Of a DNA stretch of 64,000 nt, positions 1,386 through 50,194 are shown in pieces. The stretch lies in contig NW_027138407.1 of assembly GCF_035084215.1 (NCBI RefSeq), positions 1,550,001-1,614,000 of the forward strand, given 5' to 3'. The translations under genes were made by a program, and so were the position numbers. The notes beneath the pieces are model-generated. The model was given only the letters and a program-made list of their open reading frames with translations, made no database searches and was not told the DNA's origin. Numbering within the stretch: position 1 is the stretch's first letter; the number at the start of each line of letters is the position of its first letter. The DNA comes from Heptranchias perlo (lineage: Eukaryota).

Positions 1386-2457
1386 TATTTCAGTCTAAAC
1401 TCCAGAAAAAAAGAGACTGTCTTTAAGGGGCCTACGACGGAAGGCGCTAAAACAGCGGAGGGATCTGATCAGATGTTCTGCGATTTATTTTTGTTCAAAT
1501 CAGCCTCGATCCCCAATATCACGGGGATTTGTGTCTCTCTGAACAATCATTTCCTGCATATGGCTATCAGAGAGCGCCCTCCTGTGGACAGTACAAGCCT
1601 CACACAGTTCATTGCAAATACAAACACAACAGATACACTCATAAACACGCACATGGAGACATTGAGAGATTAACACACACAAATACAGACAAACATATAT
1701 TTGCATACACGCCAACATAAACACAGATGCACCTAATGGTTGATATCTGTGGAGATGATTGATGTGCATTCAGCTCTAAGTTGTGCAAAATGACAGATCT
1801 TTAACAAATGATCAGAGAACGCCCACCTATGTGTACAATAATCCTCCCACAAAACATTCAACACACAGGTACAACCACGGACAGAGAGGCACTAACTGCT
1901 TGATTGTACCTCTCACATCAAGAAAATGCAAAGACCAGCCAAAATATGACACATGAACGGTTTTGACAGTGAAAATAAGGAGAATTTGTTTCCAATTGGA
2001 GAAGGAGCGGTAACCAGAGGACACAGATTTAAGGTGATCTGCAAAATTGCCGGAGGCGGCATGAGGAAACTTTATTTTTACGCACCGGGTTGTAATGATC
2101 TGGAATGCACTGCGTGAAAGGGTGGTGGAAGCAGATTCAATGGTAACTTTCAAAATGGAAGTCGATAAATACATAAAGGGGAAATATTTAAAGTAATATG
2201 AGGAAAGAGCAGGGGAATGGGAATAATTGGATAGTTCTTTTAAAGAGCCAGCACAGGCAGGATGGGCTGAATGGCGTCCTCATGTGCTGTGCCGACTCTG
2301 AGACATTATGTCTGTCGGTGCCGTTGCCTCTGTCTATCTGGCTGTCTTTCTTTCTTCCTATCTACATATTAGTTCACGAGCGCACCAATTGATTGAGAGG
2401 AGGTGAGTGACCTTTGTTCGTTTTTGTACAGTCTGACTGCGTCCCTGTAACAGTGTG

Positions 2458-2895
2458 GGCTGCATGGCACAGAGATACACGGCAGAGTCAGAGACAAGAG
2501 CCCCGGTGATACTTAAAGAAACCGTTTTGTTGGCTTTGTTCAAATTAGCAGAGAACCGATCTATGAAATCTGAAGACTTATCGACCTTCCCCGAGCTAAA
2601 GATCTTCATTAAATATCTCGGCGCACCCCCGGGATATTGGATGTACCAGAAGAGAGTTGGGTTATTGAATGTTGTCTCATAACTGCAGTCCAACATTACG
2701 GTCTGTTCTTCCTGAAACGTTAATTCAGGCGGATCCTGGGACACTGAGTCTTCGCCATTCGTTCCTGTAACAAAATACAGAATGTGTCAAAAGTATGGGA
2801 GTAAATGCAATCCATGAAACACACACTGACTTTGTAAACATAGACTCACCGAGCAGCACCATCATTAGTATCAGTAAGGAACATGGAGAGCGCAT
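2458..2895 (-). CDS. TCR alpha/delta V segment, family 1 (V1-2)
   Basis: Leader 2850-2895. V exon 2458-2764 with Cys23, Trp41 (WYIQ) and DSAVYLC. 23-RSS 2419-2457: CACACTG, 23-nt spacer, ACAAAAACG. Confidence 0.93.
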
Positions 2896-3618
2896 GGTGT
2901 GTGGTTTAGAGTTCGACAGAAAATAGCGGAATATTTACAATATGTTGACACTTCTGGCCTGATATCAAAGAGTAAACTCAGATCAGAGGAAGGATTCATT
3001 TCTTGGATAACTATGGGGCGTTTCCCAGAGACCGGATTGGGTGGTCTCTCAGAACGGATGCCAGATGAGCACCAATCACAGTTAATTGTGGACGAATTAA
3101 CTGATGGCTCTCGACAAACGCTTTCTTTCCCTGTCGGTGTCTGCCTGTCTCATTTTCTTTCTCTGTGTCTCTCTCTGTCATCTTTCTGCCTCCGTCTCGC
3201 TTTTTCTCTCTTTCTATCTGCTTACCTCTGTGTCCCCATCTCCATACGCCACTCTGTCTCTGTCTCCTTCTCTATCCGGCTGCTTCTCTCCCTCTGCCTG
3301 TGACACTCAATTTCTCTGTCTCTATTTCTGTCTCTGCCTACTGCTTTCTTTATCTCAGTCAGTCTCTGTGCCTTTCTCTGAATCACTCGCTTCCCGTCTT
3401 CCTCTCTCATTCTGTCTGGCCCAGTCTCTTTCTCTGTCTGTGTCTCTCTCTGTCTCTCGGTCTTTTTCTCCCTCTCTCTCACATTTCGCAACACTAACAA
3501 CACTGACCATAACGAGCGAAAACCGTTTGAATCCGCCAGTGAATAATCATCCGGAGATGGAGATGGGAAAATGTATCAGGATTGGGGAATATTGTTGGTA
3601 GATTCGAATATCACCGAC

Positions 3619-3663
3619 CTGTGATCAGAACAATAAGCAGATTCAGGCAGAGTTCACCTCCAT
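3619..3663 (-). pseudogene. Orphan family-2 leader exon (frameshifted)
   Basis: 45 nt long. A 1-nt deletion gives MEVNSA*, and a LINE is inserted just upstream of the ATG. Confidence 0.8.
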
Positions 3664-3667
3664 GATT

Positions 3668-5245
3668 TTTTTTATCAGTTCACGGGATGTGGGCTTCGCT
3701 GGCAAGGCCAGCATTAATTGCCCATCCCGAATTGCCCTTGAGAAGGTGGTGGTGAGCCGCCTTCTTGAACCGCTGCAGTCCGTGTGGTGACGGTTCTCCC
3801 ACAGTGCTGTTAGGAAGGGAGTTCCAGGATTTTGACCCAGCGACGATGAAGGAACGGCGACATATTTCCACGTCGGTATGGTGTGTGGCTTGGAGGGGAA
3901 CGTGCAGGTGGTGTTGTTCCCATGTGCCTGCTGCTCTTGTCCGTCTAGGTGGTAGAGGTCGTGGGTTTGGGAGGTGCTGTCGAAGAAGCCTTGGCGAGTT
4001 GCTGTAGTGCATCCTGTGGATGGTACACACTGCAGCCACAGTGCGCCGGTGGTGAAGGGAGTGAATGTTTAGGGTGGTGGATGGGGTGCCAATCAAGCGG
4101 GCTGCTTTATCTTGGATGGTGTCGAGCTTCTTGAGTGTTGTTGGAGCTGCACTCATCCAAGCAAGTGGAGAGTATTCCATCACACTCCTGACTTGTGCCT
4201 TGTAGATGGTGGAAAGGCTTTGGGGAGTCAGGAGGTGAGTCACTCGCCGCAGAATACCCAGCCTCTGACCTGCTCTCGTAGCCACAGTATTTATATGGCT
4301 GGTCCAGTTCAGTTTCTGGTCAATGGTGACCCCCAGGATGTTGATGGTGGGGGATTCGGCGATGGTAATGCCGTTGAATGTCAAGGGGAGGTGGTGAGAC
4401 TCTCCCTTGTTGAAGATGGTCATTGCCTGGCACTTATCTGGCACGAATGTTACTTGCCACTTATGAGCCCAAGCCTGGATGTTGTTCAGGTCTTGCTGCA
4501 TGTGGGCTCGGACTGCTTCATTATTTGAGGGGTTGCGAATGGAACTGAACACTATGCAGTCATCAGCGAACATCCCCATTTCTGACCTTATGATGGAGGG
4601 AAGGTCATTGATGAAGCAACTGAAGATGGTTGGGCCTAGGACACTGCCCTGAGTAACTCCTGCAGCAATGTCCTGGGGCTGAGATGATTGGCCTCCAACA
4701 ACCACTGCCATCTTCCTTTGTGCTAGGTATGACTCCAGCCACTGGAGAGTTTTCTCCCTGATTCTCATTGACTTCAATTTTACTAGGGCTCCTTGGTGCC
4801 ACACTCGGTCAAATGCTGCCTTGATGTCAAGGGCAGTCACTCTCACCTCACCTCTGGAATTCAGCTCTTTTGTCCATGTTTGGACCAAGGCTGTAATGAG
4901 GTTTGGAGCCGAGTGGTCCTGGTGGAACCCAAACTTAGCATCGGTGAGCAGGTTATTGGTGAGTAAGTGCCGCTTGATAGCACTGTCGACGACACCTTCC
5001 ATCATTTTGCTGATGATTGAGAGTAGACTGATGGGGCGGTAATTGGCCGGATTGGATTTGTCCTGCTTTTTGTGGACAGGACATACCTGGGCAATTTTCC
5101 ACATTGTCTGGTAGATGCCAGTGTTGTAGCTGTACTGGAACAGATTGGCTAGAGGCGCAGCTAGTTCTGGAGCACAAGTCTTCAGCACTACAGCTGAGAT
5201 GATGTCGGGGCCCATAGCCTTCGCTGTATCCAGTGCGCTCAGCCG
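3668..5245 (-). mobile_element. 5'-truncated non-LTR retrotransposon (CR1/L2 group), open RT domain
   Basis: ORF 3680-5326 contains NYRPISLLS, DIKAAFDRV, GVTQGSVLGP and FADD. It ends in an A-rich 3' tail and interrupts the unit sequence catga|ttccagtctgaactcc. Confidence 0.95.
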
Positions 5246-5400
5246 TTCCAGTCTGAACTCCAGAAGCAAGAGACTGCTTTCATCGGGCCTGGGATTGGAG
5301 ACGCTAAAATAGCAAACGGAACTCATCAGATGTTCTGGGATTCCTTTTTCTGCCCATTTCTGTCTCTCTTAACAATCATTTCCTGAAGATGATGATCAGG

Positions 5401-5420
5401 GAGCGCCCTCCTGTGGACAG
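5401..5420 (-). promoter_or_regulatory. CTCF-like site (representative of about 20 same-orientation copies)
   Basis: Minus strand TGTCCACAGGAGGGCGCTC resembles the CTCF core CCASYAGRKGGCRS. In units without the LINE insertion it lies about 150-190 bp upstream of the family-2 or orphan leader. Confidence 0.6.
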
Positions 5421-6235
5421 CACCAGGCACACACAGTTCATTGGAAATAAAAATACAGCTGATCCGCTCATCAACACACTGCGAGAGAGAGAGAGATTAA
5501 CACACGCAAACACAGACACACATACAAATGCAGGTGCATACACGACAAAATAAACCCAGATACATGTAATGGTTGATATCTGTGGAGATTATTGATGTGC
5601 ATTCAGCTGTAAATTGTTAAAAATGACTGATATTGAACACGTGATCAGAGAACGCCCTCCTGTGTATATTATAATCCTCACATAGCATTCGACACACACA
5701 CAACCATGGACTAGACGGGCACAAACGGTTTGACTGTGCCTCCCACATGAAGAAAATGGAAGACCAGCTATTACATGACTTATGAACGGTTTTGATAGTG
5801 TAAGTAAGGAGAAATCGTTTCCAGTGGTTGATGGGTCGGAAACCAGAGGACACAGAATTAAGGTGATCCGCAAAATTGTCAGAGGCGACATGAGGAAACA
5901 TGTTTTTATTTAGCGAGTTCAAATGATCTGGAATGCACTGCCTGAAAGGGTGGTGGAAGCAGATTCAATGGTACATTCAAAAGGGAATTCGATAAATGCA
6001 TGAAGGGAAAATATGTATCGCGCTTTGGGGAAAGAGCAGGGTAATGGGACTATTTGCATAGCCTTTTTAAAGAGCCGCCACAGGCACGACGGGCCGAATA
6101 GCATGCTCCTGTGCATGACTTGCTCTGATACTGTGATACTGTGTCTGTCGGTGCCTCAATATCTATCTTTCTTTCGATCCACCTATCAGTTCACCTGCGC
6201 ACCAATTCCGTGAGAGGAGGTGAGAGACCATTGTG

Positions 6236-6262
6236 GGTTTTTGTACGGTCTGGTGAGCGCAT
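6236..6262 (-). pseudogene. Deletion scar of a family-1 V gene
   Basis: Nonamer 6236-6244 plus 8 nt of spacer is joined directly to the first codons of the leader (ATG at 6262-6260). Heptamer, V exon, intron and most of the leader are missing, while both flanks are intact. Confidence 0.85.
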
Positions 6263-7416
6263 GTGGTGTGGCTTAGAGTTCACAGAAAATCGGGGAATGA
6301 TTTCAATATGTTGACCCTTCTGTTCTGATATTAAAGAGTAAACTCAGATCCGGGGCAGGATTCACTTATTGGAAAATTAAGGGGCGTTTCCCAGTGACCG
6401 GATTGGCTGGTCTCTCATAACTGATGCCAGCTGTGCACCAATCACAGTTAGTTGTGGACTAATTAACTGATGGCTCTCTCCCAACGCTTTCCTTCCCTGT
6501 CTGTGTCTGTCTGTCTCATTTTCTTTCTCTGTGTCTCTCTGTCAATCTTTCTGTCTCACCCTCGCTTTTTCTCTCTTTCTGTCTGCTTACCTCTGTGTCT
6601 TTATCCCTATACCACACGCTGTCTCTATTTCCGTTTCTGTCCCTCTCTCTCTCTCTCTCTGTGACACTCTATTTCTCTGTCTCTTACTACTTCTGTCTGT
6701 TGCTCTGTTTTTCTCTTTCATTTTCGATGCCTCCCTCTGCCTCAATCTCTTCCTCCCTTTCTCGCTCTATCTCTCTTTCTCTCTGTCCCAATCTCTTTCA
6801 TTGTTTCTCTCCATTTCTCTCTTTCACTCTCTTCTCTATCTCTCTCTCATTAAGGTGACAAGTGAAAAATATCTGAATCAGTCTCGATCCCCGGTATCAC
6901 GGAGTTCTCTCCACAATCAATGAGCTCCATTAATAGTCACCCAGTCTTAAGGTAACGAGGGACACGACAATTAGACAAATCTCTTCAAAGCTGCAAGCGC
7001 TAGCAATGGATTTGAACTTACACCAGTAAAGTGCTGATTTCAGTCAGTCACTACTTCAAACCCTTCGGATTCCAGGAGCTTTGAAGAGTGAAGCCCCTGA
7101 GGCCGCCTTTTGAGATGAGACAGTTTCTGAACGATGTGACCCGATGGATCTGCACCAGATCCAGGAATTTACTTGTACAGATGGATCCTGTTATTCACCC
7201 CAGAGATCTGCAAGTCGGTGCTAACACGGGGCCGGAAATGTCTGAATTTGAAACTGGATGAAGTGGTTGAGAACTGTCACATTTCCCAACACTGACAGCA
7301 CTGACCTCAACGAGAGAAAACCGCTTGAATCAGACTGAGAGTAATCATCCGGAGATGGAGATGGGAAAAAGTATCAGGATTGGGGAATATTGATGGAAGG
7401 TTCAAATATCACCGGC

Positions 7417-7462
7417 CTATGATCAGGACAATATCCAGAGTCAGGCAGAGTTTCACCTCCAT
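7417..7462 (-). pseudogene. Orphan family-2 leader exon (GC donor)
   Basis: MEVKLCLTLDIVLII-G followed by GCCGGT. Confidence 0.8.
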
Positions 7463-8000
7463 GTTTCCAGTCTGAACTCCAGAAACACGAGACTGCCTTT
7501 GCCTGACCTGCGATGGAAGATGCTGAAAGAGCAAAGGGTTCTGATGTGATGTTCTGGGATTTCCTTTTCTCTGCGTTTGTGTTTCGCGAAACAATCATTT
7601 CCTGCAGATGGTGTTCAGAGAGCGCCCTCCTGTGGACAACCGAAGCATCAAAAAGTTCATTGCAAGTACGAACACAACAGATATCTTCTGAACACACTTG
7701 GAGAGACAGAGAGATTAACACACACAAATACAGACACAGACACATGCATGTGCAATCACGTCAACATAAACCCAGATACACTTAATGGTTGATATCTGTG
7801 GAGATTATTGATGTGCATTCAGCTCTAAGTTGTTGAAGATGACTGATGTTTAACAAGTGATCAGGGAACGCCCCCCTGTGTATATTGTGATCCTCACATA
7901 CAGCATTCGACACACTCACACAACCACGGACAGACGGACACTAACGGCTTGACTGTGCCTCTCACATGAAGAAAATGCAAAGACCAGCCATTACATGACT

Positions 8001-8360
8001 CATGGACGGTTTTGATAGTGTAACTAAGGAGAAATTGTTTCCAATGGTAGAAGGTTCGGTAACCAGAGGACACAGATATAAGGTGATCTGCAAAATTGCC
8101 AGAGGCAACATGAGGAAACATTTTTTTATGCAGCGAGTTTTTATGATCAGGAATGCACTGCCTGAAAGGGCGGAGGAAGCAAATTCAGTGGTAACTTTCA
8201 AAAGGGAATTCGATAAATACTGGAAGGGAAAATGTTTAAAGGGTTATATGGAAAGAGCAGGATAATGGGACAAAGTGGGTCGTTCTTTCAAATAGCCAGC
8301 ACAGGCAAGATGGGCTGAATGGCCTCCTCATGTGCTGTGCCCACTCTGATATTATGATGC
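8001..8360 (+). mobile_element. CR1 LINE 3' fragment co-amplified in every family-1 unit (representative copy)
   Basis: Translates as GFDSVTKEKLFPMVEGSVTRGHRYK...FFMQRV...NALPE...GYMERAG (CR1 ORF2 C-terminus) plus the 3'UTR. Other copies start near 1953, 5781, 10856, 12057, 14338, 17050, 19270, 21750, 23945, 26145, 28610, 30808, 33275, 35480 and 37957. Confidence 0.85.
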
Positions 8361-8674
8361 GGTGATGTTATTTCTGTCGGTGCCTCTGTCCAACTAGCTT
8401 TCTTTCTTTCGTTCTATCTCTCCACATATCAGTTCACGAGCGCACCAATTCATTAAACAGCCGGCATAGTCACGACGGGCGGAATGGCCTCCTCATGTGC
8501 AGTGCCTACTCTCACACCATGATACTATGATACTTTGTCTGTCGGTGCCTCAATATATCTATTTATCTTTCCTTCTATCTACATGTCAGATCACCAGCGC
8601 ACCAATTCAGTGAGAGGGGTTGAGAGACCTTTGCTGGTTTTTGTACGGTCTGACTGCGATCCTGTAACAGTGTG

Positions 8675-9112
8675 GGCTGCATGGCACAGAGATACACGGC
8701 AGAGTCAGAGACAAGAGCCCCGGTGATATTTAAAGGAACCGTTTTGTTGGCTTTATCCAAATTAGCAGAGAACCGGTCTGCGAAATCTGAAGATGTGTCT
8801 CCCTGCCCGGCGCTATATATCTTCAATAAATATCTCGGAGCTTCCCCGGGATACTGGATGTACCAGAAGAGAGCGGGGTTCCTATCTGTTGTCGAGTAAC
8901 TGCAGTTCAGTGATACAGTCTGTCCTTCCTGAACCGTTAATTCAGGCGGATCCTGGGACACTGTGTCTTTGCCACTCGTTCCTGTAACAAAATACAGAAT
9001 GGGTCAAAATTCTGGGAGTAAATATAATCCATGAAACACAACATGACCATTTAAACATAGACTCACCGGGCAGCACGATCATTATTATCAGTAAGGAACA
9101 TGGGGAGCACAT
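8675..9112 (-). CDS. TCR alpha/delta V segment, family 1 (V1-3)
   Basis: Leader 9067-9112. V exon 8675-8981 open. RSS 8636-8674 CACACTG-23-ACAAAAACC. Confidence 0.93.
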
Positions 9113-10270
9113 GGTGTTTGGTTTAGAGTTCGACAGAAATAAACGGAATGTTTTCAATATGTTGACACTTCTAGTCTGATATTAAAGAGTAAACTCAGAT
9201 CCGGGGCAGGATTCACTTATTGGAAAACTAAGGGGCGTTTCCCAGGGACCGGATTGGCTGATCTCTCATAACTGATACCAGCTGTGCACCAATAACAGTT
9301 AGTTGTGGACTAATTAACTGATGGCTCTCTCCCAACGCTTTCCTTCCCTGTCTGTGTCTGCCTGTCTCATTTTCTTTCTCTGTGTCTCTCTGTCAATCTT
9401 TCTGTCTCACCCTCGCTTTTTCTCTCTTTCTGTCTGCTTACCTCTGTGTCTTTATCCCTATAGCACACGCTGTCTCTATTTCCGTTTCTGTCCCTCTCTC
9501 TCTCTCTCTCTCTGTGACACTCTATTTCTCTGTCTCTTACTACTTCTGTCTGTTGCTCTGTTTTTCTCTTTCATTTTCGATGCCTCCCTCTGCCTCAATC
9601 TCTTCCTCCCTTTCTCGCTCTATCTCTCTTTCTCTCTGTCCCAATCTCCTTCATTGTTTCTCTCCATTTCTCTCTTTCACTCTCTTCTCTATCTCTCTCT
9701 CATTAAGGTGACAAGTGAAAAATATCTGAATCAGTCTCGATCCCCGGTATCACGGAGTTCTCTCCACAATCAATGAGCTCCATTAATAGTCACCCAGTCT
9801 TAAGGTAACGAGGGACACGACAAGTAGACAAATCTCTTCAAAGCTGCAAGCGCTAGCAATGGATTTGAACTTACACCAGTAAAGTGCTGATTTCAGTCAG
9901 TCGCTAATTCTACCCCTTCAGATTCCAGGAGCTTTGAAGAGTGACGCCCCTGAGGCCGCCATTTCAGATGAGACAGTTTCTGAACGATGTGACCCGATGG
10001 ATCTGCACCAGATCCAGGAATTTTACTTGTACAGATGGATCCTGTTATTCATCCCAGAGATCTGCAAGTCGGTGCTAACAGGGGGCTGGAATTGTCTGAA
10101 TTTGAAACTGGATAAAGTGGTTGAGAAATGTCACATTTCCCAACACTGACAGCACTGACCTCAACGAGAGAAAACCGCTTGAATCAGACTGAGAGTAATC
10201 ATCCGGAGATGGAGATGGGAAAAAGTATCAGGATTGGGGAATAATGATGGAAGGTTCAAATATCACCGGC

Positions 10271-10316
10271 CTATGATCAGGACAATATCCAGAGTCAGGC
10301 AGAGTTTCACCTCCAT
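10271..10316 (-). pseudogene. Orphan family-2 leader exon (GC donor)
   Basis: Duplicate of 7417-7462. Confidence 0.8.
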
Positions 10317-11269
10317 GTTTCCAGTCTGAACTCCAGAAACACGAGACTGCCTTTGCCTGACCTGCGATGGAAGATGCTGAAAGAGCAAAGGGTTCTGATG
10401 TGATGTTCTGGGATTTCCTTTTCTCTGCGTTTGTGTTTCGCGAAACAATCATTTCCTGCAGATGGTGTTCAGAGAGCGCCCTCCTGTGGACAACCGAAGC
10501 ATCAAAAAGTTCATTGCAAATACGAACACAACAGATATCTTCTGAACACACTTGGAGAGACAGAGAGATTAACACACACAAATACAGACACAGACACATG
10601 CATGTGCAATCACGTCATCATAAACCCAGATACACTTAATGGTTGATATCTGTGGAGATTATTGATGTGCATTCAGCTCTAAGTTGTTGAAGATGACTGG
10701 TGTTTAACAAGTGATCGAAGAACGCCCTCCTGTGTATGTTGTAATCCTCACATACAGCATTCGACACACTCACACAACCACGGACAGACGGACACTAACG
10801 GCTTGACTGTGCCTCTCACATGAAGAAAATGCAAAGACCAGCCATTACATGACTCATGGACGGATTTGATAGTGTCAATAAGGAGAAATTGTTTCCAATG
10901 GTAGAAGGTTCGGTAACCAGAGGACACAGATATAAGGTGATCTGCAAAATTGCCAGAGGCAACATGAGGAAACATTTTTTACGCAGCGAGTTTTTATGAT
11001 CAGGAATGCACTGCCTGAAAGGGCGGAGGAAGCAAATTCAGTGGTAACTTTCAAAAGGCAATTCGATAAATACTGGAAGGGAAAATATATAAAGGGTTAT
11101 ATGGAAAGAGCAGGATAATGGGACTAAGTGGGTCGTTCTTTAAAAGAGCCAGCACAGGCAAGATGGGCTGAATGGCCTCCTCGTGTGCTGTGCCCACTCT
11201 GATATTATGATGCGATGATGTTATGTCTGTCGGTGCCTCTGTCCATCTAGATTTCTTTCTTTCCTTCAA

Positions 11270-11522
11270 TCTATCTGCATATCAGGACAATAACCAGAGT
11301 TACATCATTAAATAAATGTAAAACAGAAGTTGACAGTTTCCTAGAAGTAAAGGGAATTAGGGGTTACGGGGAGCGGGCAGGTAATTGGACATGAATTTAA
11401 ATTTGAGGTGAGGATCAGATCAGCCATGATCTTATTGAATGGCGGAGCAGGCTCGAGGGGCCCATTGGCCTACTCCTGCTCCTATTTCTTATGTTCTTAG
11501 TCAGGCAGAGCTTCATCTCCAT
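11270..11522 (-). pseudogene. Deletion scar removing a whole family-1 V gene, fused to a disrupted orphan family-2 leader
   Basis: The V1 3' flank (...catATCAG) joins the middle of the orphan leader (ATCAGgacaataacc) at an ATCAG microhomology. The leader is also interrupted by a CR1 tail. Confidence 0.8.
11301..11498 (+). mobile_element. CR1-type LINE 3' end inserted in an orphan leader
   Basis: Ends in ...ggcctactcctgctcctatttcttatgttctt, is flanked by AGT on both sides, and is absent from all other units. Confidence 0.85.
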
Positions 11523-12577
11523 GATTCCAGTCTGAATTCCAGAAACAAGAGACTGCCTTTATAGGGTCTGGGTTGGGAGACGCTAAAACAGCAAACGGAT
11601 CTCATCAGATGTTCTGGGATTTCTTTTTCTGCCCATTTGTGTCTCTCTGAACAATCAGTTCCTTCAGATGGCGTTCAGAGAGCGCCCTCCTGTGGACAGC
11701 ACAAGCCTCACAGAATTCATTGCAATTACAAATACAGCAGATCTGCTCATAAACACACAGAGAGATATAGAGAGATTAACACACTCAAATAGAGACACAC
11801 ACATATGCATACACGTTAACATAAACTCAGATACACATAATGGTTGATATCTGTAGACATTATTGATGTGCATTCAGCTGTAAATTCTTAAAGATGACTG
11901 ATCTGTAACAAGTGATCAGAGAACGCTCCCCTGTGTTTATTATGATCATCACATGCAGCATTCGACACGCAGACACAATGAATGACAAACGGACACTAAC
12001 GGATTGCCTGTGCCTCTCACATGAAGAAAATGCAAAGACCAGCCATGACATGAATCATGAACGGTTTTGATAGTGTAAATAAGGAGAAATTGCTTCCAAT
12101 GGTGGAAGGGTTGGCAGCCAAAGGACACAGATTTAAGATGATCAGCAAAATTGCCAGAAGCTACAAGACGAAATATTTTATATGCAGCGAATTCTTATGA
12201 TCTGGGATGCACTGCCTGAAAGGGTGGTGGAAGCAGATTGAATCGTAACTTTCAGAAGGGAATTGGATAAATACATAAAGGGAATATATTTAATGGGTTA
12301 CGGGGAAAGAGCAGGATAATGGGACAAAGTGGGTCGTTCTTTTAAAGAGCCAACACAGGCAAGATGGGTTGAATGGCCTCCTCATGTGCTGTGCCCACTC
12401 TGATGCTATGGTACTGTGATATTATGTCTGTCGGTGCCGGTGTCTCTGTCTATCTGGCTGCCTTTCTTTCTATCTATCTCTCTACATATCAGTTTACTTA
12501 GGCACGAATTCAGTGAGTGGAGGTGAGAGACCTTTGCTGGTTTTTGTACGGACTGACTGCGCCCCTCTAACAGTGTG

Positions 12578-13584: not shown

Positions 13585-13618
<34 letters not shown>

Positions 13619-13746
13619 ACAGTAGCAGCACTGACCTTAACGAGAGAAAACCGCTTGAATCAGCCTGGGAATAAACATCCGGAGATGGAGATGGGAAAAT
13701 GTATCTGGATTGGGGAATATTGTTGCAAGATTTCAATATCACCGAC

Positions 13747-13792
13747 CTGTGAACAGGACAATAACCAGAGTCAGGCAGAGTTTCACCTCCAT
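13747..13792 (-). other. Orphan family-2 leader exon, intact
   Basis: MEVKLCLTLVIVLFT-G|GTCGGT, with no V2 exon downstream. Confidence 0.85.
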
Positions 13793-40114: not shown

Positions 40115-40598
40115 GGTCTCAGTGCACAGTAATACACGGCGCTGTCTGTGATCTTCAAGCGTTTCACGGATAAGTGAAAAGTGCCCTCTTTCTGGTTGAG
40201 ATGCGCTCTGAAGTGTTGAAAGCCTGAAGCCGTGTCGTTATACCCATAACTGTCGGCTCTGAGCATATACTGAGGGACTCGGTGGGGATACTGGCGGTAC
40301 CAGAACAGGTAATAGTCTGTAGCTGAACCCGATACAGAGTAACTACAGGTTATTGCTGAATCTGCATCCTCTTCTGATTCGACTCCTTGTTCTGACTGGG
40401 ACACCGAGTCTCCGTTACTCATCTCTGCAAATAAACAGTGGAGACAAGGCGGGTTATACAGAGGGACAGACAGTGAATAATCCCCTGGAGAAGGAGATAG
40501 GAGTTTGCATGAGAATTGGAGAATATTGTCGGAAGTTTCCAATATCACCGACCTGTGATCAGGACAATAACCAGAGTCAGGCAAAGTTTCATCTCCAT
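40115..40598 (-). CDS. TCR alpha/delta V segment, family 2 (V2-1)
   Basis: Leader 40553-40598 MEMKLCLTLVIVLIT-G (donor AG|GTCGGT). V exon 40115-40424 after TTTGCAG (EMSNGDSVSQ...TC...FWYRQ...DSAVYYCALR). RSS 40076-40114 CACAGTG-23-ACAAAAACA. Confidence 0.93.
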
Positions 40599-40837
40599 GG
40601 TATCAGTCACACCTCCAGAAACAAGGGGCTGTGATCACTGCCTTCACCGGGTCTGGAATGGGAGAAACTAAAACTCAGCGGGGATGTCATCCGATGTTCT
40701 GGGATTTCTTCTCCCCGCCCATTTATGTTTCTCCGAACAGTCACTTCCTGTAGATGGGGATCATGATCTTTAATAAGTGATCAGAGAGCGCCCTCCTGTG
40801 AACAGCACAAGCCGCACTCAGAGCTTTGGAAATAAAC

Positions 40838-41965
40838 CCACACAAACACAGACACAGATAAACACACACACACACAGACACAGATAAACACACACAAACA
40901 CACAAATAACACAAACACAGATAAAGACACACAAACGCATAACACATACACAGATACACAAACTCAAACGCAGATAAACAAACACAAACACAGATAAACA
41001 AACACAAACACACGTAACACAAACACAGATAAACAAACACACAGACGCAGATAAACACAAACACATAACACAAACACAGATGCACAAACACAAACGCAGA
41101 TAAACAAACACAAACACAGATAAAGACACACAAAAACACACATAACACAAACACAGATAAACACACACAAACACAGAACACAAACACAGATAAACAAACA
41201 CAAACACACGTAACACAAACACAGATAAACAAACACACAAACACAGGTAAAGACACACAAACACATAACACAAACACAGATACACAAACACAAACGCAGA
41301 TAAACAAACACAAACACAGATAAACACAAACAAACACACATAACACAAACACAGATAAACAAACACACAGACACAGATAAACACAAACACATAACACAAA
41401 CACAGATAAACAAACATACAAACACAGATAAACACACACAAACACATATAACACAAACACAAATACACAAACACAAACACAGGTAAAGAAACACAAACAC
41501 AGATAAACAATCACAAACACAGATAAACAAACGCAATTACACATAACACACACAAATGCACATAACAGACATAAACACACATAACACACACAAACAAGGA
41601 TAAACACACAGACACGCAAACAGACAGATAAACACATACACACATACAAACTCAGGCAGATAAACACACACACAACCACATAGACAGATACGCAAACACA
41701 CACGCACACACAGCCACAAACACGGACAAACACACATTAACACAGATAAACACACACAAACACAGATAAACACACACCAACACACATAACACAAACACAG
41801 ATAAACAAACACACGGACACAGATAAACACAAACAGACACAGACAGATAAACACATATAGACACACACACACCAACATAAACGCATATACACACACAGTG
41901 ACACTCAGGGACACACACAGCTACACACTAACTGAGACACATACACACAAACTCAGACACACACA
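40838..41965. repeat. CA-rich compound VNTR (ACACAGATAAACAC-type units)
   Basis: Visible low-complexity array. Confidence 0.95.
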
Positions 41966-42414
41966 ATGGATTGTCATCATGTGGACGGTCCTGGTGTATA
42001 TTGAATTGTAACTTTCTTGAGATGCAAGGACACCGAATCTCTGCAAACGATCAAACACGAGTATTAATTACGTCTCTCAGAAACGCATCAAAAAACTTTC
42101 CAAACAGTCGGTCTAGTCATGAGGTTCAGCGACTCGCTGCACCCACTCGGTGCCTCTCTCAGCCCGGAGTCAGAGGTTGTCCATTTGAGTCCCATTTTCA
42201 GGACTCGGAGACCGCAGTGAGCCTGGTGGGAGACGAGGTGAACTCAATCCAGCAGATGCGCCCCCTGTAGACATTAGCCGAAGTGCATCGATACCATTTT
42301 CTACTGAGCAATGAGCGATGCGACCAACTTGCACAGTCCATCTCTGGGACTCCAGCTTACATTTCTCAATGAATGGGAAATGGCTGCCGCAACATGCAGT
42401 AGTAATGCTGCAAT

Positions 42415-42954
42415 CAACAACAATAGCAACAGCTTGCATTTATATAGCGCCTTTGATGTAGTAAAAAAGTCCCAAGGCGGTTCACAGGACCGTTATCGGC
42501 GAAAATTTGACACCGAGACACATAAGGAGATATTAGGACAGGTGAGCTGAAGTTTCGCCAAAGAGGTAGGTTTTAGGGAGCGTCTTAAAGAAGGAGAGAG
42601 AGGTAAAGAGTTGGAGAGGGTCAGGGAGGGAATTCCATAGCTTAGGACCGAGACGGCTGAAGGCACGGCCGCCAATGGTGGAGCGATTACAATCGGGGAA
42701 TGGGCAAGAGGCAAGAATTGGAGGAGCACAGAGATATGAGAGGGTTGTAGGGGCTGGGGGAGGTTCCAGAGATAGAGAGGAGGCGAGGCCATAGAGGGGT
42801 TTGAACATGAGGATAAGAATTTTATAATCGAAGTGTCCCCTGTCCGGGAGCCAATGTTGGTCAGCGATCACAGGGGGTGATGGGTGAACGGGACTTGATG
42901 CGAGTTAGGATACGGGGGCAGCAGAGTTTAGGATGAGATCAAGTTTAAGGAGGG
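42415..42954 (-). mobile_element. L2-clade LINE 3' fragment
   Basis: HWLP...DYKILILMFK...GGRAFSRLGPKLWNSLP...KTYLF, with tail ggcgctatataaatgcaag(tgt)n. Confidence 0.85.
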
Positions 42955-43143
42955 TGTCACATTTCCCAACACTGACAGCACTGACCTTAACTGGAGAAAA
43001 CCGCTCGGAACAGGGTGTATTTTCGCATTAATCTCCTGTAAAACACTCTGGGATTCAATCCCTGGTATTTTCCCAGATCCCACCCTTGACGCCGACCTGT
43101 GCCCTGTTTTTGTATGAGTCCCGAGGGACCCCTATTCACTGTG

Positions 43144-43627
43144 GGTCTCAGTGCACAGTAATACACGGCGCTGTCTGTGATCTTCAAGCGTTTCACGGAT
43201 AAGTGAAAAGTGCCCTCTTTCTGGTTGAGATTCGCTCTGAAGTGTTGAAAGCCTGAAGCCGTGTCGTTATACCCATAACTATCGGCCCTGAGTATATACT
43301 GAGGGACTCGGTGGGGATACTGGCGGTACCAGAACAGGCAATAGTTTGTAGCTGAATCCGATACAGAGTAACTACAGGTTATTGCTGAATCTGCATCCTC
43401 TTCTGATCCGACTCCTTGTTCTGACTGGGACACCGAGTCTCCGTTACTCATCTCTGCGAATAAACAGTGGAGACAAGGCGGGTTATACGGAGGGACAGAC
43501 AGTGAATAATCCCCTGGAGAAGGAGATAGGAGTTTGCATGAGAATTGGAGAATATTGTCGGAAGTTTCCAATATCACCGACCTGTGATCAGGACAATAAC
43601 CAGAGTCAGGCAAAGTTTCAACTCCAT
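43144..43627 (-). CDS. TCR alpha/delta V segment, family 2 (V2-2, extra Cys at end of CDR1)
   Basis: Leader 43582-43627. V exon 43144-43453. RSS 43105-43143 CACAGTG-23-ACAAAAACA. Confidence 0.92.
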
Positions 43628-43865
43628 GGTATCAGTCACACCTCCAGAAACAAGGGGCTGTGATCACTGCCTTCACCGGGTCTGAAATGGGAGAAACTAA
43701 AACTCAGCGGGGATGTCATCCGATGTGCTGGGATTTCTTCTCCCCGCCCATTTATGTTTCTCCGAACAGTCACTTCCTGTAGATGGGGATCATGATCTTT
43801 AATAAGTGATCAGAGAGCGCCCTCCTGTGAACAGCACAAGCCGCACTCAGAGCTTTGGAAATAAA

Positions 43866-44480
43866 CCCACACAAACACAGACACAGATAAACACACACAA
43901 ACACAAATAAACCCACACACACAGACACAGATAAACACACACAAACACAGACACAGATAAACACACACAAACACAGACACAGATAAACACACAGAAACAC
44001 AGATAAACACACACAAACACAGATAAACACACACAAACACAGACACAGATAAACACACAGAAACACAGATAAACACACACAAACACACAGACACAGATAA
44101 ACACACACACAGACACAGATAAACACACAGAAAAACACACACAGATAAACACACACAAACACAGACACAGAGAAACACACACAAAAACACACAAAACACA
44201 AACACAGATAAACAAACAGAAACACAGATAAACACACAGAAACACAGATAAACACACACCAACACACACAACACAAACACAGATAAACACACACCAACAC
44301 ACACAACACAAACACAGATAAACAAACACGCGGACACAGATAAATACAAACAGACACAGACAGGTAAACATATATAGACACACACACCCCAACATAAACG
44401 CATACACACACAGTGACACTCGGGGACACACACAGCTACACACTAACTGAGACACATACACACAAACTCAGACACACACA
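43866..44480. repeat. CA-rich compound VNTR
   Basis: Visible low-complexity array. Confidence 0.95.
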
Positions 44481-44929
44481 ATGGATTGTCATCATGTGGA
44501 CGGTCCTGGTGTATATTGAATTGTAACTTTCTTGAGATGCAAGGACACTGAATCTCTGCAAAGGATCAAACACGAGTATTAATTACGTCTCTCAGAAACG
44601 CATCAAAAAACTTTCCAAACAGTCGGTCTAGTCATGAGGTTCAGCGACTCGCTGCACCCACTCGGTGCCTCTCTCAGCCCGGAGTCAGAGGTTGTCCATT
44701 TGAGTCCCATTTTCAGGACTCGGAGACCGCAGTGAGCCTGGTGGGAGACGAGGTGAACTCAATCCAGCAGATGCGCCCCCTGTAGACATTAGCCGAAGTG
44801 CATCGATACCATTTTCTACTGAGCAATGAGCGATGCGACCAACTTGCACAGTCCATCTCTGGGACTCCAGCTTACATTTCTGAATGAATGGGGAATGGCT
44901 GCCGCAACATGCAGTAGTAATGCTGCAAT

Positions 44930-45468
44930 CAACAACAATAGCAACAGCTTGCATTTATATAGCGCCTTTAATGTAGTAAAATGTCCCAAGGCGGTTCACA
45001 GGAGCGTCATCGGCGAAAATTCGACACCGAGACACATAAGGAGATATTAGGACAGGTGAGTTGAAGTTTCGCCAAAGAGGTAGGTTTTAGGGAGCGTCTT
45101 AAAGAAGGAGAGAGAGGTCGAGAGTTGGAGAGGTTTAGGGAGGGAATTCCAGAGCTTAGGACCGAGACGGCTGAAGGCACGGCCGCCAATGGTGGAGCGA
45201 TTACAATCGGGGAATGGGCAAGAGGCAAGACTTGGAGGAGCACAGAGATCTGAGAGGGTTGTAGGGGCTGGGGGAGGTTCCAGAGATAGAGAGGAGGCGA
45301 GGCCATAGAGGGGTTTGAACATGAGGATAAGAATTTTATAATCGAAGTGTCCCCTGTCCGGGAGCCAATGTTGGTCAGCGATCACAGGGGGTGATGGGTG
45401 AACGGGACTTGATGCGAGTTAGGATACGGGGGCAGCAGAGTTTAGGATGAGATCAAGTTTAAGGAGGG
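44930..45468 (-). mobile_element. L2-clade LINE 3' fragment
   Basis: Duplicate of 42415-42954. Confidence 0.85.
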
Positions 45469-45657
45469 TGTCACATTTCCCAACACTGACAGCACTGACC
45501 TTAACTGGAGAAAACCGCTCGGAACAGGGTGTATTTTCGCATTAATCTCCTGTAAAATACTCTGGGATTCAATCCCTGGTATTTTCCCGGATCCCACCCT
45601 TGACGCCGACCCGTGCCCTGTTTTTGTGTGAGTCCCGAGGGACCCTTATTCACTGTG

Positions 45658-46141
45658 GGTCTCAGTGCACAGTAATACACGGCGCTGTCTGTGATCTTCA
45701 AGCGTTTCACGGATAAGTGAAAAGTGCCCTCTTTCTGGTTGAGATTCGCTCTGAAGTGTTGAAAGCCTGAAGCCGTGTCGTTATACCCATAACTATCGGC
45801 TCTGAGCATGTACTGAGGGGCTCGGTGGGGATACTGGCGGTACCAGAACAGGTAATAGCTTGTAGCTGAATCCGATACAGAGTAACTACAGGTTATTGCT
45901 GAATCTGCATCCTCTTCTGATCCGACTCCTTGTTCTGACTGGGACACCGAGTCTCCGTTACTCATCTCTGCAAATAAACAGTGGAGACAAGGCGGGTTAT
46001 ACAGAGGGACAGACAGTGAATAATCCCCTGGAGAAGGAGATAGGAGTTTGCATGAGAATTGGAGAATATTGTCGGAAGTTTCCAATATCACCGACCTGTG
46101 ATCAGGACAATAACCAGAGTCAGGCAAAGTTTCATCTCCAT
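45658..46141 (-). CDS. TCR alpha/delta V segment, family 2 (V2-3)
   Basis: Leader 46096-46141. V exon 45658-45967. RSS 45619-45657 CACAGTG-23-ACAAAAACA. Confidence 0.93.
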
Positions 46142-46380
46142 GGTATCAGTCACACCTCCAGAAACAAGGGGCTGTGATCACTGCCTTCACCGGGTCTGGA
46201 ATGGGAGAAACTAAAACTCAGCGGGGATGTCATCCGATGTTCTGGGATTTCTTCTCCCCGCCCATTTATGTTTCTCCGAACAGTCACTTCATGTAGATGG
46301 GGATCATGATGTTTAATAAGTGATCAGAGAGCGCCCTCCTGTGAACAGCACAAGCCGCACTCAGAGCTTTGGAAATAAAC

Positions 46381-48296
46381 CCACACAAACACAGACACAG
46401 ATAAACACACACAAACACACAGATAAACACACACAAACACAGACACAGATAAACACACACACACACAGACACAGATAAACACACACACACAGACACAGAT
46501 AAACACACACACACACAGACACAGATAAACACACACACACAGACACAGATAAACACACACAAACACACACACAGATAAACACACACACACAGATAAACAC
46601 ACACAAACACACACACAGATAAACACACACACACACAGACACAGATAAACACACACAAACACAGACACAGATAAACACACACAAACACAGATAAACACAC
46701 ACAAACACAGACACAGATAAACACACACAAACACAGACACAGATAAACACACACAAACACAGACACAGATAAACACACAGAAGCACAGATAAACACACAG
46801 AAACACAGACACAGATAAACACACAGAAGCACAGATAAACACACACAAAAACACAGACACAGATAAACACACACAAACACAGATAAACACACACAAACAC
46901 AGACACAGATAAACACACACAAACACAGACACAGATAAACACACACAAACACAGACACAGATAAACACACAGAAGCACAGATAAACACACAGAAACACAG
47001 ACACAGATAAACACACAGAAGCACAGATAAACACACACAAAAACACAGACACAGATAAAAACACACAAACACAGAAAAACACACACAAACACACATAACA
47101 AAAACGCAGATAAACACACACAAACACAGATAAAGACACACAAAAACACACATAACACAAACACAGATAAACACACACAAACACAGATAAAGACACACAA
47201 ACGCATAACACATACACAGATACACAAACACAAACGCAGATAAACAAACACAAACGCAGATAAACACACACAAAAACACACGTAACACAAACACAGATAA
47301 ACACACACAAACAAAGATAAACACACACATAAACACACATAACACAAACACAGATAAACACACACAAACACAAATAAACCCCACGCAAACACAGACACAG
47401 ATAAAAACACACACAAAAACACACATAACACAAACACAGATAAACACACACAAACGCAGATAAAGACACACAAACACGTAACACAAACACAGATAAACAA
47501 ACACAAACACAGATAAACACACACAAAAACACACATAACACAAACACAGATAAACACACACAAACACAGATAAAGACACACAAACACGTAACACAAACAC
47601 AGATAAACAAACACAAACACACGTAACACAAACACAGATAAACACACACAAACGCATAACACATACGCAGATACACAAACACAAACACAGATAAACACAC
47701 ACAAAACACACATAACACAAACACAGATAAACAAACACAAACACAGATAAACACACACAAACACATATAACACAAACACAGATACACAAACACAGGTAAA
47801 CAAACACAAACACAGATAAACAATCACAAACACAGATAAACAAACGCAATTGCACATAACACACACAAATGCACATAACACACATAAACACACATAATAC
47901 GCACAAACACAGACAAACACACAGACACGCAAACAGACAGATAAACACATACACACATACAAACTCAGGCAGGTAAACACACACACAACCACATAGACAG
48001 ATACACAAACACAGATGCACACAGCCACAAACACGGACAAACACACATTAACACAGATAAACAACACACAAACACAGATAAACACACACAAACACAGATA
48101 AACACACACCAACACACATAACACAAACACAGATAAACAAACACACGGACACAGATAAACACAAACAGACACAGACAGATAAACATAAATAGACACACAC
48201 ACCCCAACATAAACGCATACACACACAGTGACACTCAGGGACACACACAGCTACACACTAACTGAGACACATACACACAAACTCAGACACACACAA
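46381..48296. repeat. CA-rich compound VNTR
   Basis: Visible low-complexity array. Confidence 0.95.
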
Positions 48297-48744
48297 TGGA
48301 TTGTCATCATGTGGAGGGTCCTGGTGTATATTGAATTGTAACTTTCTTGAGATGCTGGAATACCGAATCTCTGCAAAGGATCAAACACGAGTATTAATTA
48401 CGTCTCTCAGAAACGCATCAAAAAACTTTCCAAACAGTCGGTCTAGTCATGAGGTTCAGCGACTCGCTGCACCCACTCGGTGCCTCTCTCAGCCCGGAGT
48501 CAGAGGTTGTCCATTTGAGTCCCATTTTCAGGACTCGGAGACCGCAGTGAGCCTGGTGGGAGACGAGGTGAACTCAATCCAGCAGATGCGCCCCCTGTAG
48601 ACATTAGCCGAAGTGCATCGATACCATTTTCTACTGAGCAATGAGCGATGCGACCAACTTGCACAGTCCATCTCTGGGACTCCAGCTTACATTTCTGAAT
48701 GAATGGGGAATGGCTGCCGCAACATGCAGTAGTAATGCTGCAAT

Positions 48745-49283
48745 CAACAACAATAGCAACAGCTTGCATTTATATAGCGCCTTTGATGTAGTAAAATGTC
48801 CCAAGGCGGTTCACAGGAGCGTCATCGGCGAAAATTTGACACCGAGACACATAAGGAGATATTAGGACAGGTGAGCTGAAGTTTCGCCAAAGAGGTAGGT
48901 TTTAGGGAGTGTCTTAAAGAAGGAGAGAGAGGTAGAGAGTTGGAGAGGTTTAGGGAGGGAATTCCAGAGCTTAGGACCGAGACGGCTGAAGGCACGGCCG
49001 CCAATGGTGGAGCGATTACAATCGGGGAATGGGCAAGAGGCAAGAATTGGAGGAGCACAGAGATCTGAGAGGGTTGTAGGGGCTGGGGGAGGTTCCAGAG
49101 ATAGAGAGGAGGCGAGGCCATAGAGGGGTTTGAACATGAGGATAAGAATTTTATAATCGAAGTGTCCCCTGTCCGGGAGCCAATGTAGGTCAGCGATCAC
49201 AGGGGGTGATGGGTGAACGGGACTTGGTGCGAGTTAGGATACGGGGGCAGCAGAGTTTAGGATGAGCTCAAGTTTAAGGAGGG
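48745..49283 (-). mobile_element. L2-clade LINE 3' fragment
   Basis: Duplicate of 42415-42954. Confidence 0.85.
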
Positions 49284-49472
49284 TGTCACATTTCCCAACA
49301 CTGACAGCACTGACCTTAACTGGAGAAAACCGCTCGGAACAGGGTGTATTTTCGCATTAATCTCCTGTAAAATACTCTGGGATTCAATCCCTGGTATTTT
49401 CCCGGATCCCACCCTTGACGCCGACCCGTGCCCTGTTTTTGTATGAGTCCCGAGGGACCCTTATTCACTGTG

Positions 49473-49956
49473 GGTCTCAGTGCACAGTAATACACGGCGC
49501 TGTCTGTGATCTTCAAGCGTTTCACGAATAAGTGAAAAGTGCCCTCTTTCTGGTTGAGATTCGCTCTGAAGTGTTGAAAGCCTGAAGCCGTGTCGTTATA
49601 CCCATAACTATCGGCCCTGAGTATATACTGAGGGACTCGGTGGGGATACTGGCGGTACCAGAACAGGTAATAGCTTGTAGCTGAATCCGATACAGAGTAA
49701 CTGCAGGTTATTACTGAATCTGCATCCTCTTCTGATCCGACTCCTTGTTCTGACTGGGACACCGAGTCTCCGTTACTCATCTCTGCAAATAAACAGTGGA
49801 GACAAGGCGGGTTATACAGAGGGACAGACAGTGAATAATCCCCTGGAGAAGGAGATAGGAGTTTGCATGAGAATTGGAGAATATTGTAGGAAGTTTCCAA
49901 TATCACCGACCTGTGATCAGGACAATAACCAGAGTCAGGCAAAGTTTCATCTCCAT
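49473..49956 (-). CDS. TCR alpha/delta V segment, family 2 (V2-4), most 5' V in the window
   Basis: Leader 49911-49956. V exon 49473-49782. RSS 49434-49472 CACAGTG-23-ACAAAAACA. Confidence 0.93.
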
Positions 49957-50194
49957 GGTATCAGTCACACCTCCAGAAACAAGGGGCTGTGATCACTGCC
50001 ATCACCGGGTCTGGAATGGGAGAAACTAAAACTCAGCGGGGATGTCATCCGATGTGCTGGGATTTCTTCTCCCCGCCCATTTATGTTTCTCCGAACAGTC
50101 ACTTCCTGTAGATGGGGATCATGATCTTTAATAAGTGATCAGAGAGCGCCCTCCTGTGAACAGCACAAGCCGCACTCAGAGCTTTGGAAATAAA

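What the first reader, a model, noticed from the sequence alone, without database searches (positions are those of the whole stretch)
1550..50170. Periodic ladder of same-orientation CTCF-like sites, one set per V unit
Seen: minus-strand TGTCCACAGGAGGGCGCTC or a close variant occurs near 1572, 5401, 7620, 10474, 11680, 13949, 16668, 18899, 21366, 23565, 25761, 28236, 30428, 32899, 35101, 37573, 40786, 43815, 46329 and 50144. Family-1 units have a second copy (ACACAGGAGGGCGTTC) about 250 bp away, and often an abutting plus-strand CC(T/C)GCAG(G/A)TGGCGT. Established: mammalian Tcra/d V promoters carry oriented CTCF sites used in cohesin looping and RAG access. Inference: the same architecture exists in this lineage, with sites pointing in the V transcription direction. 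This could explain why the orphan V2 promoter block was kept in each unit.
Basis: partly seen in the sequence, partly recalled or inferred. Interest (0 to 1): 0.7.

Follow-up and report, generated by a model that had tools for sequence, protein, structure and literature searches.

The report
Copied CTCF site in shark TCR
The evenly spaced ladder is one promoter motif copied along with tandemly duplicated T-cell-receptor gene segments of a shark-like fish; it is likely a docking site for the genome-folding protein CTCF, one of many such motifs in this locus, which would make part of the mouse folding layout ancient, but binding is untested.

Summary
All 20 listed sites are real, but four exact opposite-strand copies were missed, spacing is 1.2-3.8 kb, and the ladder is one motif amplified by tandem duplication at the distal end of a cartilaginous-fish TCR alpha/delta locus. 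The ladder alone is no evidence: shuffled matrices do as well in 5-9 of 60 trials. The main site scores 16.7 bits (p about 1e-6, recalled matrix) with an off-consensus core; the second copy mostly fails. Both cores are conserved across 33 units (changes 0.36 and 0.27 of expected), but not in a CTCF-specific pattern. The real support lies outside the window. The rest of the V region holds 13 unrelated strong motif families (null 0.8), their changes spare the matrix, 11 of 12 strong V-linked families follow V transcription, and V-facing sites sit at a TEA-like position and behind both C-alpha genes. Unlike mouse (129 of 144 facing J-C), the sites flip with inverted V genes (29 of 52 face J-C). 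Likely a promoter CTCF site kept after its V was deleted; binding and function untested. This scan noted similar sites in other shark genomes. New member of a known kind.

The parts
1572..1590 (-). main CTCF-like 19-mer, orphan family-2 promoter block, 16.7 bits
5401..5419 (-). main site, 16.7 bits; block split from its leader by a LINE-like insertion
7620..7638 (-). main site, 16.7 bits; unit has lost its V exon
10474..10492 (-). main site, 16.7 bits
11680..11698 (-). main site, 16.7 bits; extra block with no V of its own, leader truncated
13949..13967 (-). main site, 13.6 bits
16668..16688 (-). main site, altered (two mismatches), best frame 13.1 bits
18899..18917 (-). main site with a damaging core change, 10.1 bits
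21366..21384 (-). main site, 16.7 bits
23565..23583 (-). main site, 16.7 bits
25761..25779 (-). main site, 16.7 bits
28236..28254 (-). main site, 16.7 bits
30428..30446 (-). main site, 16.7 bits
32899..32917 (-). main site, 16.7 bits
35101..35119 (-). main site, 16.7 bits
37573..37591 (-). main site, 16.7 bits
40786..40804 (-). site in the promoter of an intact family-2 V, about 190 bp before the ATG, 12.0 bits
43815..43833 (-). family-2 promoter site, 12.0 bits
46329..46347 (-). family-2 promoter site, 12.0 bits
50144..50162 (-). family-2 promoter site, 12.0 bits; most distal site of this motif family
20705..20917 (+).
   Evidence: left junction bridged by run contigs
27575..27787 (+). inverted duplicate, exact plus-strand site at 27753
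32238..32450 (+). inverted duplicate, exact plus-strand site at 32416
36911..37123 (+). inverted duplicate, exact plus-strand site at 37089
14202..14220 (-). second (upstream) copy, example; also at 5650, 7866, 10720, 16913, 19134, 21612, 23808, 26008, 28475, 30671, 33138, 35344, 37820; usually 7.1 bits, yet its core is conserved
13927..13945 (+). abutting plus-strand CTCF-like word, example; 8.1-14.6 bits in 13 of 16 blocks; no clear conservation
13747..13792 (-). orphan family-2 leader exon, example; ATG, 15 codons and GT donor intact in 10 of 16 blocks
   Evidence: 9 by pattern, 16670 read by eye
2460..38747 (-). 14 family-1 TCR-alpha-type V exons (2460, 8677, 12580, 14868, 17537, 19798, 22197, 24393, 26666, 29060, 31329, 33723, 36002, 38454), open frames; 13 with a recognisable 23-RSS
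40117..49771 (-). 4 intact family-2 V exons (40117, 43146, 45660, 49475) with 23-RSS

Best explanation
The ladder is one motif from the promoter of a TCR alpha/delta V gene, copied with each tandem duplication of the unit, and it is likely a CTCF-binding site that would tether these most distal V genes to the V-facing CTCF-like sites at the J-C end of the locus. Shown: the ancestral unit was a family-2 V in front of a family-1 V (still intact at 38454-40804 and alternating at C240:1.30-1.35 Mb); the family-2 exon was lost while its promoter, leader and motif stayed; the unit was then amplified; one fragment was inverted and amplified four times. Shown: the motif core is conserved about threefold over its surroundings, and the locus carries many unrelated, selected CTCF motifs. 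Inferred: CTCF binds this off-consensus form in thymocytes. Inferred: bound sites stall cohesin and raise contact with the recombination centre. Inferred: because sites flip with their V, they act mainly as local promoter or accessibility anchors in a contracted locus, not as a one-way scanning track. Least sure: that selection for this site is why the orphan block was kept.
For: Matrix score 16.7 bits, p about 1e-6. Among 33 array-only copies (median identity 86%) the core shows 7 changes against 19.3 expected (resampling p 0.004; 13 of 660 background windows as low), similar to the RSS heptamer (0.38); no CpG transition in the motif against 1.3 per background CpG column. Rest of V region: 52 sites in 13 unrelated flank families at p<=1e-6, against 0.8+/-1.0 families for 60 shuffled matrices (0 of 60 reach it); none in 278 kb of flanks. 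In 10 chosen families, 64 of 74 flank-found copies stay strong and core changes cost -2.5 bits against -4.1 at random (p 5e-5). 11 of 12 strong V-linked families follow V transcription (p 0.003). All 3 sites at p<=1e-6 in the C-J region face the V genes, one 650 bp before the first J-alpha. The CTCF consensus is enriched genome-wide (549 against 25 reversed), and the window's variant about 1.6-fold outside C240 (60 against 37). Skate has ctcf, cohesin and oriented motifs at TAD borders (PMC10115646, passages).
Against: No binding data. The core departs from consensus at positions 8-9, and the intact family-2 promoters carry a weaker 12-bit form. Changes within this motif are not matrix-sparing (p 0.44, n=29). 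The sub-threshold second copy is as conserved (5 seen, 18.5 expected), which fits another factor reading the shared core equally well. Over all 49 copies the raw footprint is modest (15% of windows as conserved). No upstream CTCF module (0 of 47). Several intact-V units carry damaged sites. Only 29 of 52 strong sites outside the array face J-C. 15 of 37 V families have no strong upstream site. Gene conversion between units weakens the tree-based counts, and the 10 families were picked for strong seeds.
Confidence: 0.6

Rival explanations
1. Hitch-hiking: the motif was a promoter element of the family-2 V and is now a passive passenger of recent tandem duplication, unbound or bound without consequence.
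For: All 20 sites are one family; shuffled matrices match the array count in 5-9 of 60 trials; blocks persist where the V is gone (7620, 11680); damaged sites sit beside intact V genes; inverted copies were tolerated and amplified.
Against: Core changes are 0.36 of expected among array-only copies, all later than the loss of the family-2 exon, while the spacer (1.06) and the promoter DNA between site and leader (1.00) drift at background rate.
Confidence: 0.17
2. The conserved word shared by both copies is read by another factor (a GC-box or zinc-finger protein) and acts as an upstream promoter or enhancer element for the family-1 V genes.
For: Both copies share and conserve the same core although one fails the CTCF matrix; position 4 differs between the three forms; the substitution pattern is not CTCF-shaped.
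Against: The main copy matches 17 bits of the CTCF matrix, two lineages changed position 9 to the consensus base, and the locus is full of clear CTCF motifs at the same kind of place.
Confidence: 0.13
3. The block was kept as a working alternative promoter and leader that splices onto the downstream family-1 V exon; the motif is preserved as part of that promoter.
For: Leader ATG, frame and GT donor intact in 10 of 16 window blocks; leader changes 0.70 of expected, close to the family-1 leader's 0.63; same intron phase by the sequence.
Against: The leader signal is weak (64 of 560 background windows as low); the DNA between site and leader drifts at background rate; 4 of 16 leaders are broken and 2 have a GC donor.
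Confidence: 0.1

Closest known systems
CTCF sites of the mouse Tcra-Tcrd V region (Loguercio et al. 2018, PMC5859386; abstract, section 20 and passages read)
   Same: Same locus type; many sites upstream of V promoters; window sites point to J-C; a V-facing site just 5' of the J-alpha array, like the TEA site.
   Different: Mouse: ChIP-bound, 129 of 144 face J-C. Here: motifs only; 29 of 52 strong sites outside the array face J-C because sites invert with their V; most window sites sit in a promoter whose V exon is gone.
INT1-2/TEA loop and EACBE of mouse Tcra-Tcrd (PMC7515734 and PMC8679779, passages)
   Same: A J-facing site at C240:829933 and V-facing sites at 773303 and 767865 would enclose D-J-C-delta in 57-62 kb (mouse 80 kb); V-facing sites lie 13-16 kb behind C-alpha.
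   Different: Outside the window; one INT-like site, not two; two J-alpha/C-alpha blocks, each with its own 3' site; DAD1 is on another contig; no loop data; orthology to the mouse elements not shown.
Mouse Ig-kappa V region (PMC5859386, section read)
   Same: V genes and CTCF sites in both orientations, so many joins go by inversion (40 of 133 intact V are inverted here).
   Different: In Ig-kappa site orientation does not follow V orientation; here it does (11 of 12 strong families).
RSS-proximal CTCF elements of mouse Igh proximal VH genes (recalled)
   Same: One site repeated per V by duplication, facing the recombination centre.
   Different: Window sites lie 815-910 bp from the nearest V 3' end in regular units, not directly behind the RSS; only another V family of this locus has an RSS-side site.

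Membership tests
Vertebrate CTCF-binding element | Significant match to the CTCF core matrix | tested here: met
   Main site 16.7 bits, p about 1e-6; family-2 form 12.0 bits; all 20 pass p<=1e-4 (recalled MA0139.1). Second copy does not (1 of 14).
Vertebrate CTCF-binding element | Purifying selection on the core | tested here: met
   7 changes against 19.3 expected in 33 array copies, p 0.004; 20 against 39.6 in 49 copies.
Vertebrate CTCF-binding element | Changes spare the positions CTCF reads | tested here: inconclusive
   Window motif p 0.44, n=29; ten other families of the locus p 5e-5, n=44.
Vertebrate CTCF-binding element | Upstream module for zinc fingers 9-11 (optional; consensus recalled) | tested here: not met
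   0 of 47 members; 1 of 15 strong families in the locus.
Vertebrate CTCF-binding element | Occupancy by CTCF in vivo or in vitro | not testable with these tools
   The run search listed no library on record as ChIP or ATAC.
Vertebrate CTCF-binding element | CTCF protein with conserved DNA-reading fingers in this species | not tested
   Indirect only: consensus 549 against 25 reversed in this genome (the reversed control has one more CpG); ctcf present in skate (PMC10115646).
Mouse-type Tcra/Tcrd CTCF architecture | Locus is a TCR alpha/delta translocon | tested here: met
   220 V-like segments, J-delta, C-delta, J-alpha arrays and C-alpha on C240.
Mouse-type Tcra/Tcrd CTCF architecture | Sites upstream of many V promoters | tested here: met
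   22 of 37 V families have a strong site within 2 kb upstream: 16 sense, 4 antisense, 2 tied.
Mouse-type Tcra/Tcrd CTCF architecture | About 90% of V-region sites face J-C | tested here: not met
   29 of 52 (p<=1e-6) and 54 of 103 (p<=1e-5) outside the array; 20 of 24 main-type sites in the window.
Mouse-type Tcra/Tcrd CTCF architecture | [quoted passage not shown] | tested here: met
   C240:767865, plus strand, 19.4 bits, 650 bp before the first J-alpha; sequence only.
Mouse-type Tcra/Tcrd CTCF architecture | Convergent INT-TEA pair and 3' boundary site forming loops | tested here: inconclusive
   Motifs at matching places and orientations; single instances, no contact data.
Mouse-type Tcra/Tcrd CTCF architecture | Effect on V usage or rearrangement | not testable with these tools
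   Needs repertoire or perturbation data.
RSS-proximal Igh-type element | Site directly behind the RSS (distance recalled as under about 150 bp) | tested here: not met
   815-910 bp from the upstream V 3' end in regular units.
Motif spread by a transposable element | Copies dispersed across the genome | tested here: not met
   29 of 30 exact 16-mer matches lie on C240 in the V region.

The most novel reading that the evidence does not exclude
The whole CTCF grammar of the mouse Tcra-Tcrd locus (V-promoter sites, a V-facing TEA site, an INT-like partner looping out D-J-C-delta, a boundary behind C-alpha) dates from the ancestor of jawed vertebrates, and this shark's distal array kept the CTCF site of a deleted V gene as a stand-alone capture element for the V family it then amplified, while V-plus-site inversions elsewhere show that sharks reach V genes without one-way scanning.
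Probability: 0.35. Interest if true: 0.65.

Novelty: new member of a known kind. Interest (0 to 1): 0.42.

Why it matters
CTCF control of V(D)J recombination has been worked out almost only in mouse. A matching set of motifs in a cartilaginous fish would date that control to the origin of rearranging receptors. The shark locus also offers natural experiments: V genes inverted together with their site, and sister units with intact or damaged sites, whose use can be read from a repertoire. The ladder itself matters little: it is what tandem duplication does to any motif.

Tried and rejected
The ladder as statistical evidence: rejected (one family). Uniform orientation: rejected. The abutting plus-strand word as a selected second site: no support over 49 copies, weak in the array (0.58 of expected, but 83 of 640 windows as low). 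The first leader test was inflated by copies lacking the region and was replaced. A first flank-only footprint over 19 families was marginal (13 of 19, Wilcoxon p 0.049), since weak families in repeats were included. Transposon origin: rejected. RSS-proximal type: rejected. Upstream CTCF module: absent. Sequencing runs: no RNA holder listed, so expression and leader splicing were not examined; contigs of three DNA runs of one sample bridge the left junction of the inverted block, which is not independent support. A C-alpha family search found nothing; C exons were found by local search instead. DAD1 is not on C240. 100 kb of C1079 with seven TCR-alpha-type V genes has only 2 sites of 12 bits or more. 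Literature: no paper on CTCF in a cartilaginous-fish TCR locus in the listings of searches; PMC12227049 has no mention of CTCF; a search for the core letters gave one unrelated plant paper. Three primary papers (a shark TCR/Ig review, Shih 2012, Chen 2015) were not held, so their content is known here only through citing papers; subscription journals and supplements were not searched.
Full report
What the window is. It is G000:C240:1550001-1614000 of a 3.25-Gb genome. It holds 14 V exons of one family and 4 of another, all on the minus strand; the family-2 protein's best single-domain matches in the PDB include TCR alpha chains. I fetched C240 from 450 kb to 1714 kb. It holds 220 V-like segments between 817 and 1600 kb, J-delta at 793-804 kb, C-delta at 792 kb, two J-alpha arrays (723-767 and 644-678 kb) each followed by a C-alpha (718 and 635 kb), V-J-C-delta cassettes and IgH-like mini-clusters among the V genes. 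NARTCR-like cassettes and IgH-like V genes in a TCR alpha/delta locus mark a cartilaginous fish (PMC12227049, passages). The window is the distal end of the V region, and minus points towards J-C.

The observation. All 20 sites exist (9 exact, 10 with one mismatch, 1 with two), with second copies in 14 of 16 family-1 blocks. Four exact plus-strand copies were missed (20883, 27753, 32416, 37089); each lies in the same 213-bp inverted fragment. Spacing is 1206-3829 bp, and two blocks have no V of their own. All sites fall in one flank family of 47 strong copies on C240, and 29 of 30 exact 16-mer matches in the genome are on this contig. So the ladder is one motif times the number of duplicated units.

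Anatomy and history. In the four intact family-2 genes the motif lies about 190 bp before the leader ATG. In family-1 units it lies about 157 bp before an orphan copy of that leader, 1.1-1.5 kb upstream of the next V exon and 815-910 bp beyond the previous V in regular units. Family-1 and family-2 V genes alternate at C240:1.30-1.35 Mb and at window 38454-40413. The simplest history is a two-V unit, loss of the family-2 exon, then amplification. The two motif copies share only 38 aligned bases at 79% identity.

Matrix scores. With JASPAR MA0139.1 recalled from memory (column sums 908-913), the main form scores 16.7 of 27.4 bits (p about 1.1e-6), the family-2 form 12.0, the usual second copy 7.1 (cut for p=1e-4: 7.85), and the abutting plus word 8.1-14.6 in 13 of 16 blocks. 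The main form is off consensus at positions 8-9. Genome-wide the canonical consensus occurs 549 times against 25 reversed (the reversed control has an extra CpG). The window's variant class occurs 60 times outside the fetched C240 stretch against 37 for a control broken at position 10, so it is at most a minor variant. No upstream module was found (0 of 47).

Is it more than chance? In the array, no: one family seen, and 5 of 60 (strict) or 9 of 60 (looser) shuffled matrices also give one. In the other 680 kb of V region, yes: 52 sites in 13 unrelated families at p<=1e-6, against a null of 0.8+/-1.0 (maximum 4); 3 sites in the C-J region against 0.1; none in 165 kb of 5' flank or 113 kb of distal flank.

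Selection. Across 49 copies the raw footprint is modest (1.43 changes per column against 2.10; 15% of windows as low), and with base-matched expectation 20 against 39.6 (p 0.003). In 33 array-only copies the main core shows 7 changes against 19.3 (p 0.004), the second core 5 against 18.5 (p 0.001), the abutting word 14 against 24.3, the orphan leader 37 against 52.8, while spacer and promoter DNA drift at 1.06 and 1.00 of expected; for scale, the V exon is 0.69 and the RSS heptamer 0.38 in 22 copies. Against the CTCF reading: the 29 changes in the main motif cost no less score than random placement (p 0.44), and the failing second copy is as conserved. For ten other families (10 of 33, chosen for strong seeds and 3 or more members, which biases towards conservation), 64 of 74 copies found by flanks stay above p=1e-5, core columns carry 3.1 alternative alleles against 7.4 in flanks, and changes spare the matrix (p 5e-5). 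Gene conversion makes all tree counts approximate.

Orientation. Of 37 V families, 16 have a sense site within 2 kb upstream, 4 antisense, 2 tied and 15 none. Of 15 site families with a seed of 16 bits or more, 11 follow the nearest V, 1 opposes it and 3 are far from any V (p 0.003); at the looser cut 16 against 7, with 10 far (p 0.047). But 40 of 133 intact V genes are inverted, 13 of 16 multi-copy site families occur on both strands, and only 29 of 52 strong sites outside the array face J-C. In mouse 129 of 144 bound sites face J-C (PMC5859386, section 20). The rule here is 'with my V', not 'towards J-C'.

The J-C end. All 3 sites at p<=1e-6 between 615 and 810 kb face the V genes: 767865 (19.4 bits, 650 bp before the first J-alpha), 773303 (22.1) and 622248 (17.7). 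A J-facing site at 829933 (20.7) lies just beyond the IgH-like V-delta genes, so a convergent pair 57-62 kb apart would enclose D-J-C-delta, like the 80-kb INT1-2/TEA loop (PMC8679779, passage). Sites 13-16 kb behind each C-alpha resemble each other and recall EACBE (PMC7515734, passages). These are single motifs, with no contact data and no shown orthology; 622248 lies in CpG-rich, promoter-like DNA and could serve a neighbouring gene.

Mechanism. Most likely (0.6) CTCF binds the main site in thymocytes, stalls cohesin and helps these V genes, about 0.8 Mb from J-alpha, contact the recombination centre; the duplication history and the conservation are shown, binding and looping are inferred. 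Skate has the machinery and oriented motifs at TAD borders (PMC10115646, passages). Rivals: passive hitch-hiking (0.17), another factor reading the shared core (0.13), a working alternative promoter and leader (0.10).

Novelty. The architecture is known from mouse. The listings of searches showed no paper on CTCF sites in a cartilaginous-fish TCR locus; the library lacks most subscription journals. This scan has noted CTCF motifs beside V genes in other shark genomes (37 notes in at least 10 genomes held the search words), including sites that flip with their V; those are unchecked AI notes and not support. A word search for the TEA-like convergent pair returned no note. Verdict: new member of a known kind; interest 0.42.

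Noticed in passing
G000:C240:767865, 773303 (plus) and 829933 (minus); L131, L132, L068: Strong CTCF motifs at TEA-like and INT-like places, convergent around D-J-C-delta (57-62 kb). Homologues of the 773303 site lie behind the C-delta copies of the NARTCR-like cassettes and face back towards them.
   Followed up: partly
G000:C240:635-767 kb: Two J-alpha arrays, each with its own C-alpha (717835 and 635452) and a related V-facing motif 13-16 kb behind it: a duplicated J-alpha/C-alpha block.
   Followed up: partly
G000:C240:852729, 866367, 976159, 1041019: One V family carries a CTCF motif about 21 bp behind its RSS nonamer, the Igh-like RSS-proximal layout.
   Followed up: partly
G000:C240:817-1489 kb: 40 of 95 intact V genes outside the distal array are inverted relative to J-C; several divergent V pairs share one strong CTCF motif between them.
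   Followed up: partly
window 13747-13792 and homologues: Orphan family-2 leader exons keep ATG, frame and GT donor in 10 of 16 blocks: a possible alternative leader for family-1 V exons.
   Followed up: partly
window 19798-20085: Family-1 V with an open frame but no recognisable RSS heptamer behind it.
   Followed up: no
window 42240-42270, 44765-44790, 48590-48605, 51719-51745: A near-palindromic CTCF-like word upstream of each family-2 unit; it stays under the p=1e-4 cut.
   Followed up: no
G000:C1079:397-444 kb (L123-L128): Seven TCR-alpha-type V exons on another contig, no J found in the 100 kb read, and only two motifs of 12 bits or more.
   Followed up: partly
G000:C3:73376317-73380525: DAD1, the neighbour of C-alpha in mouse, is on another contig, so that linkage is not seen here.
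   Followed up: no
window 54198-62731: The V region ends at about 50.2 kb and is followed by satellite arrays (21-, 47- and 49-bp units, TATC runs).
   Followed up: no
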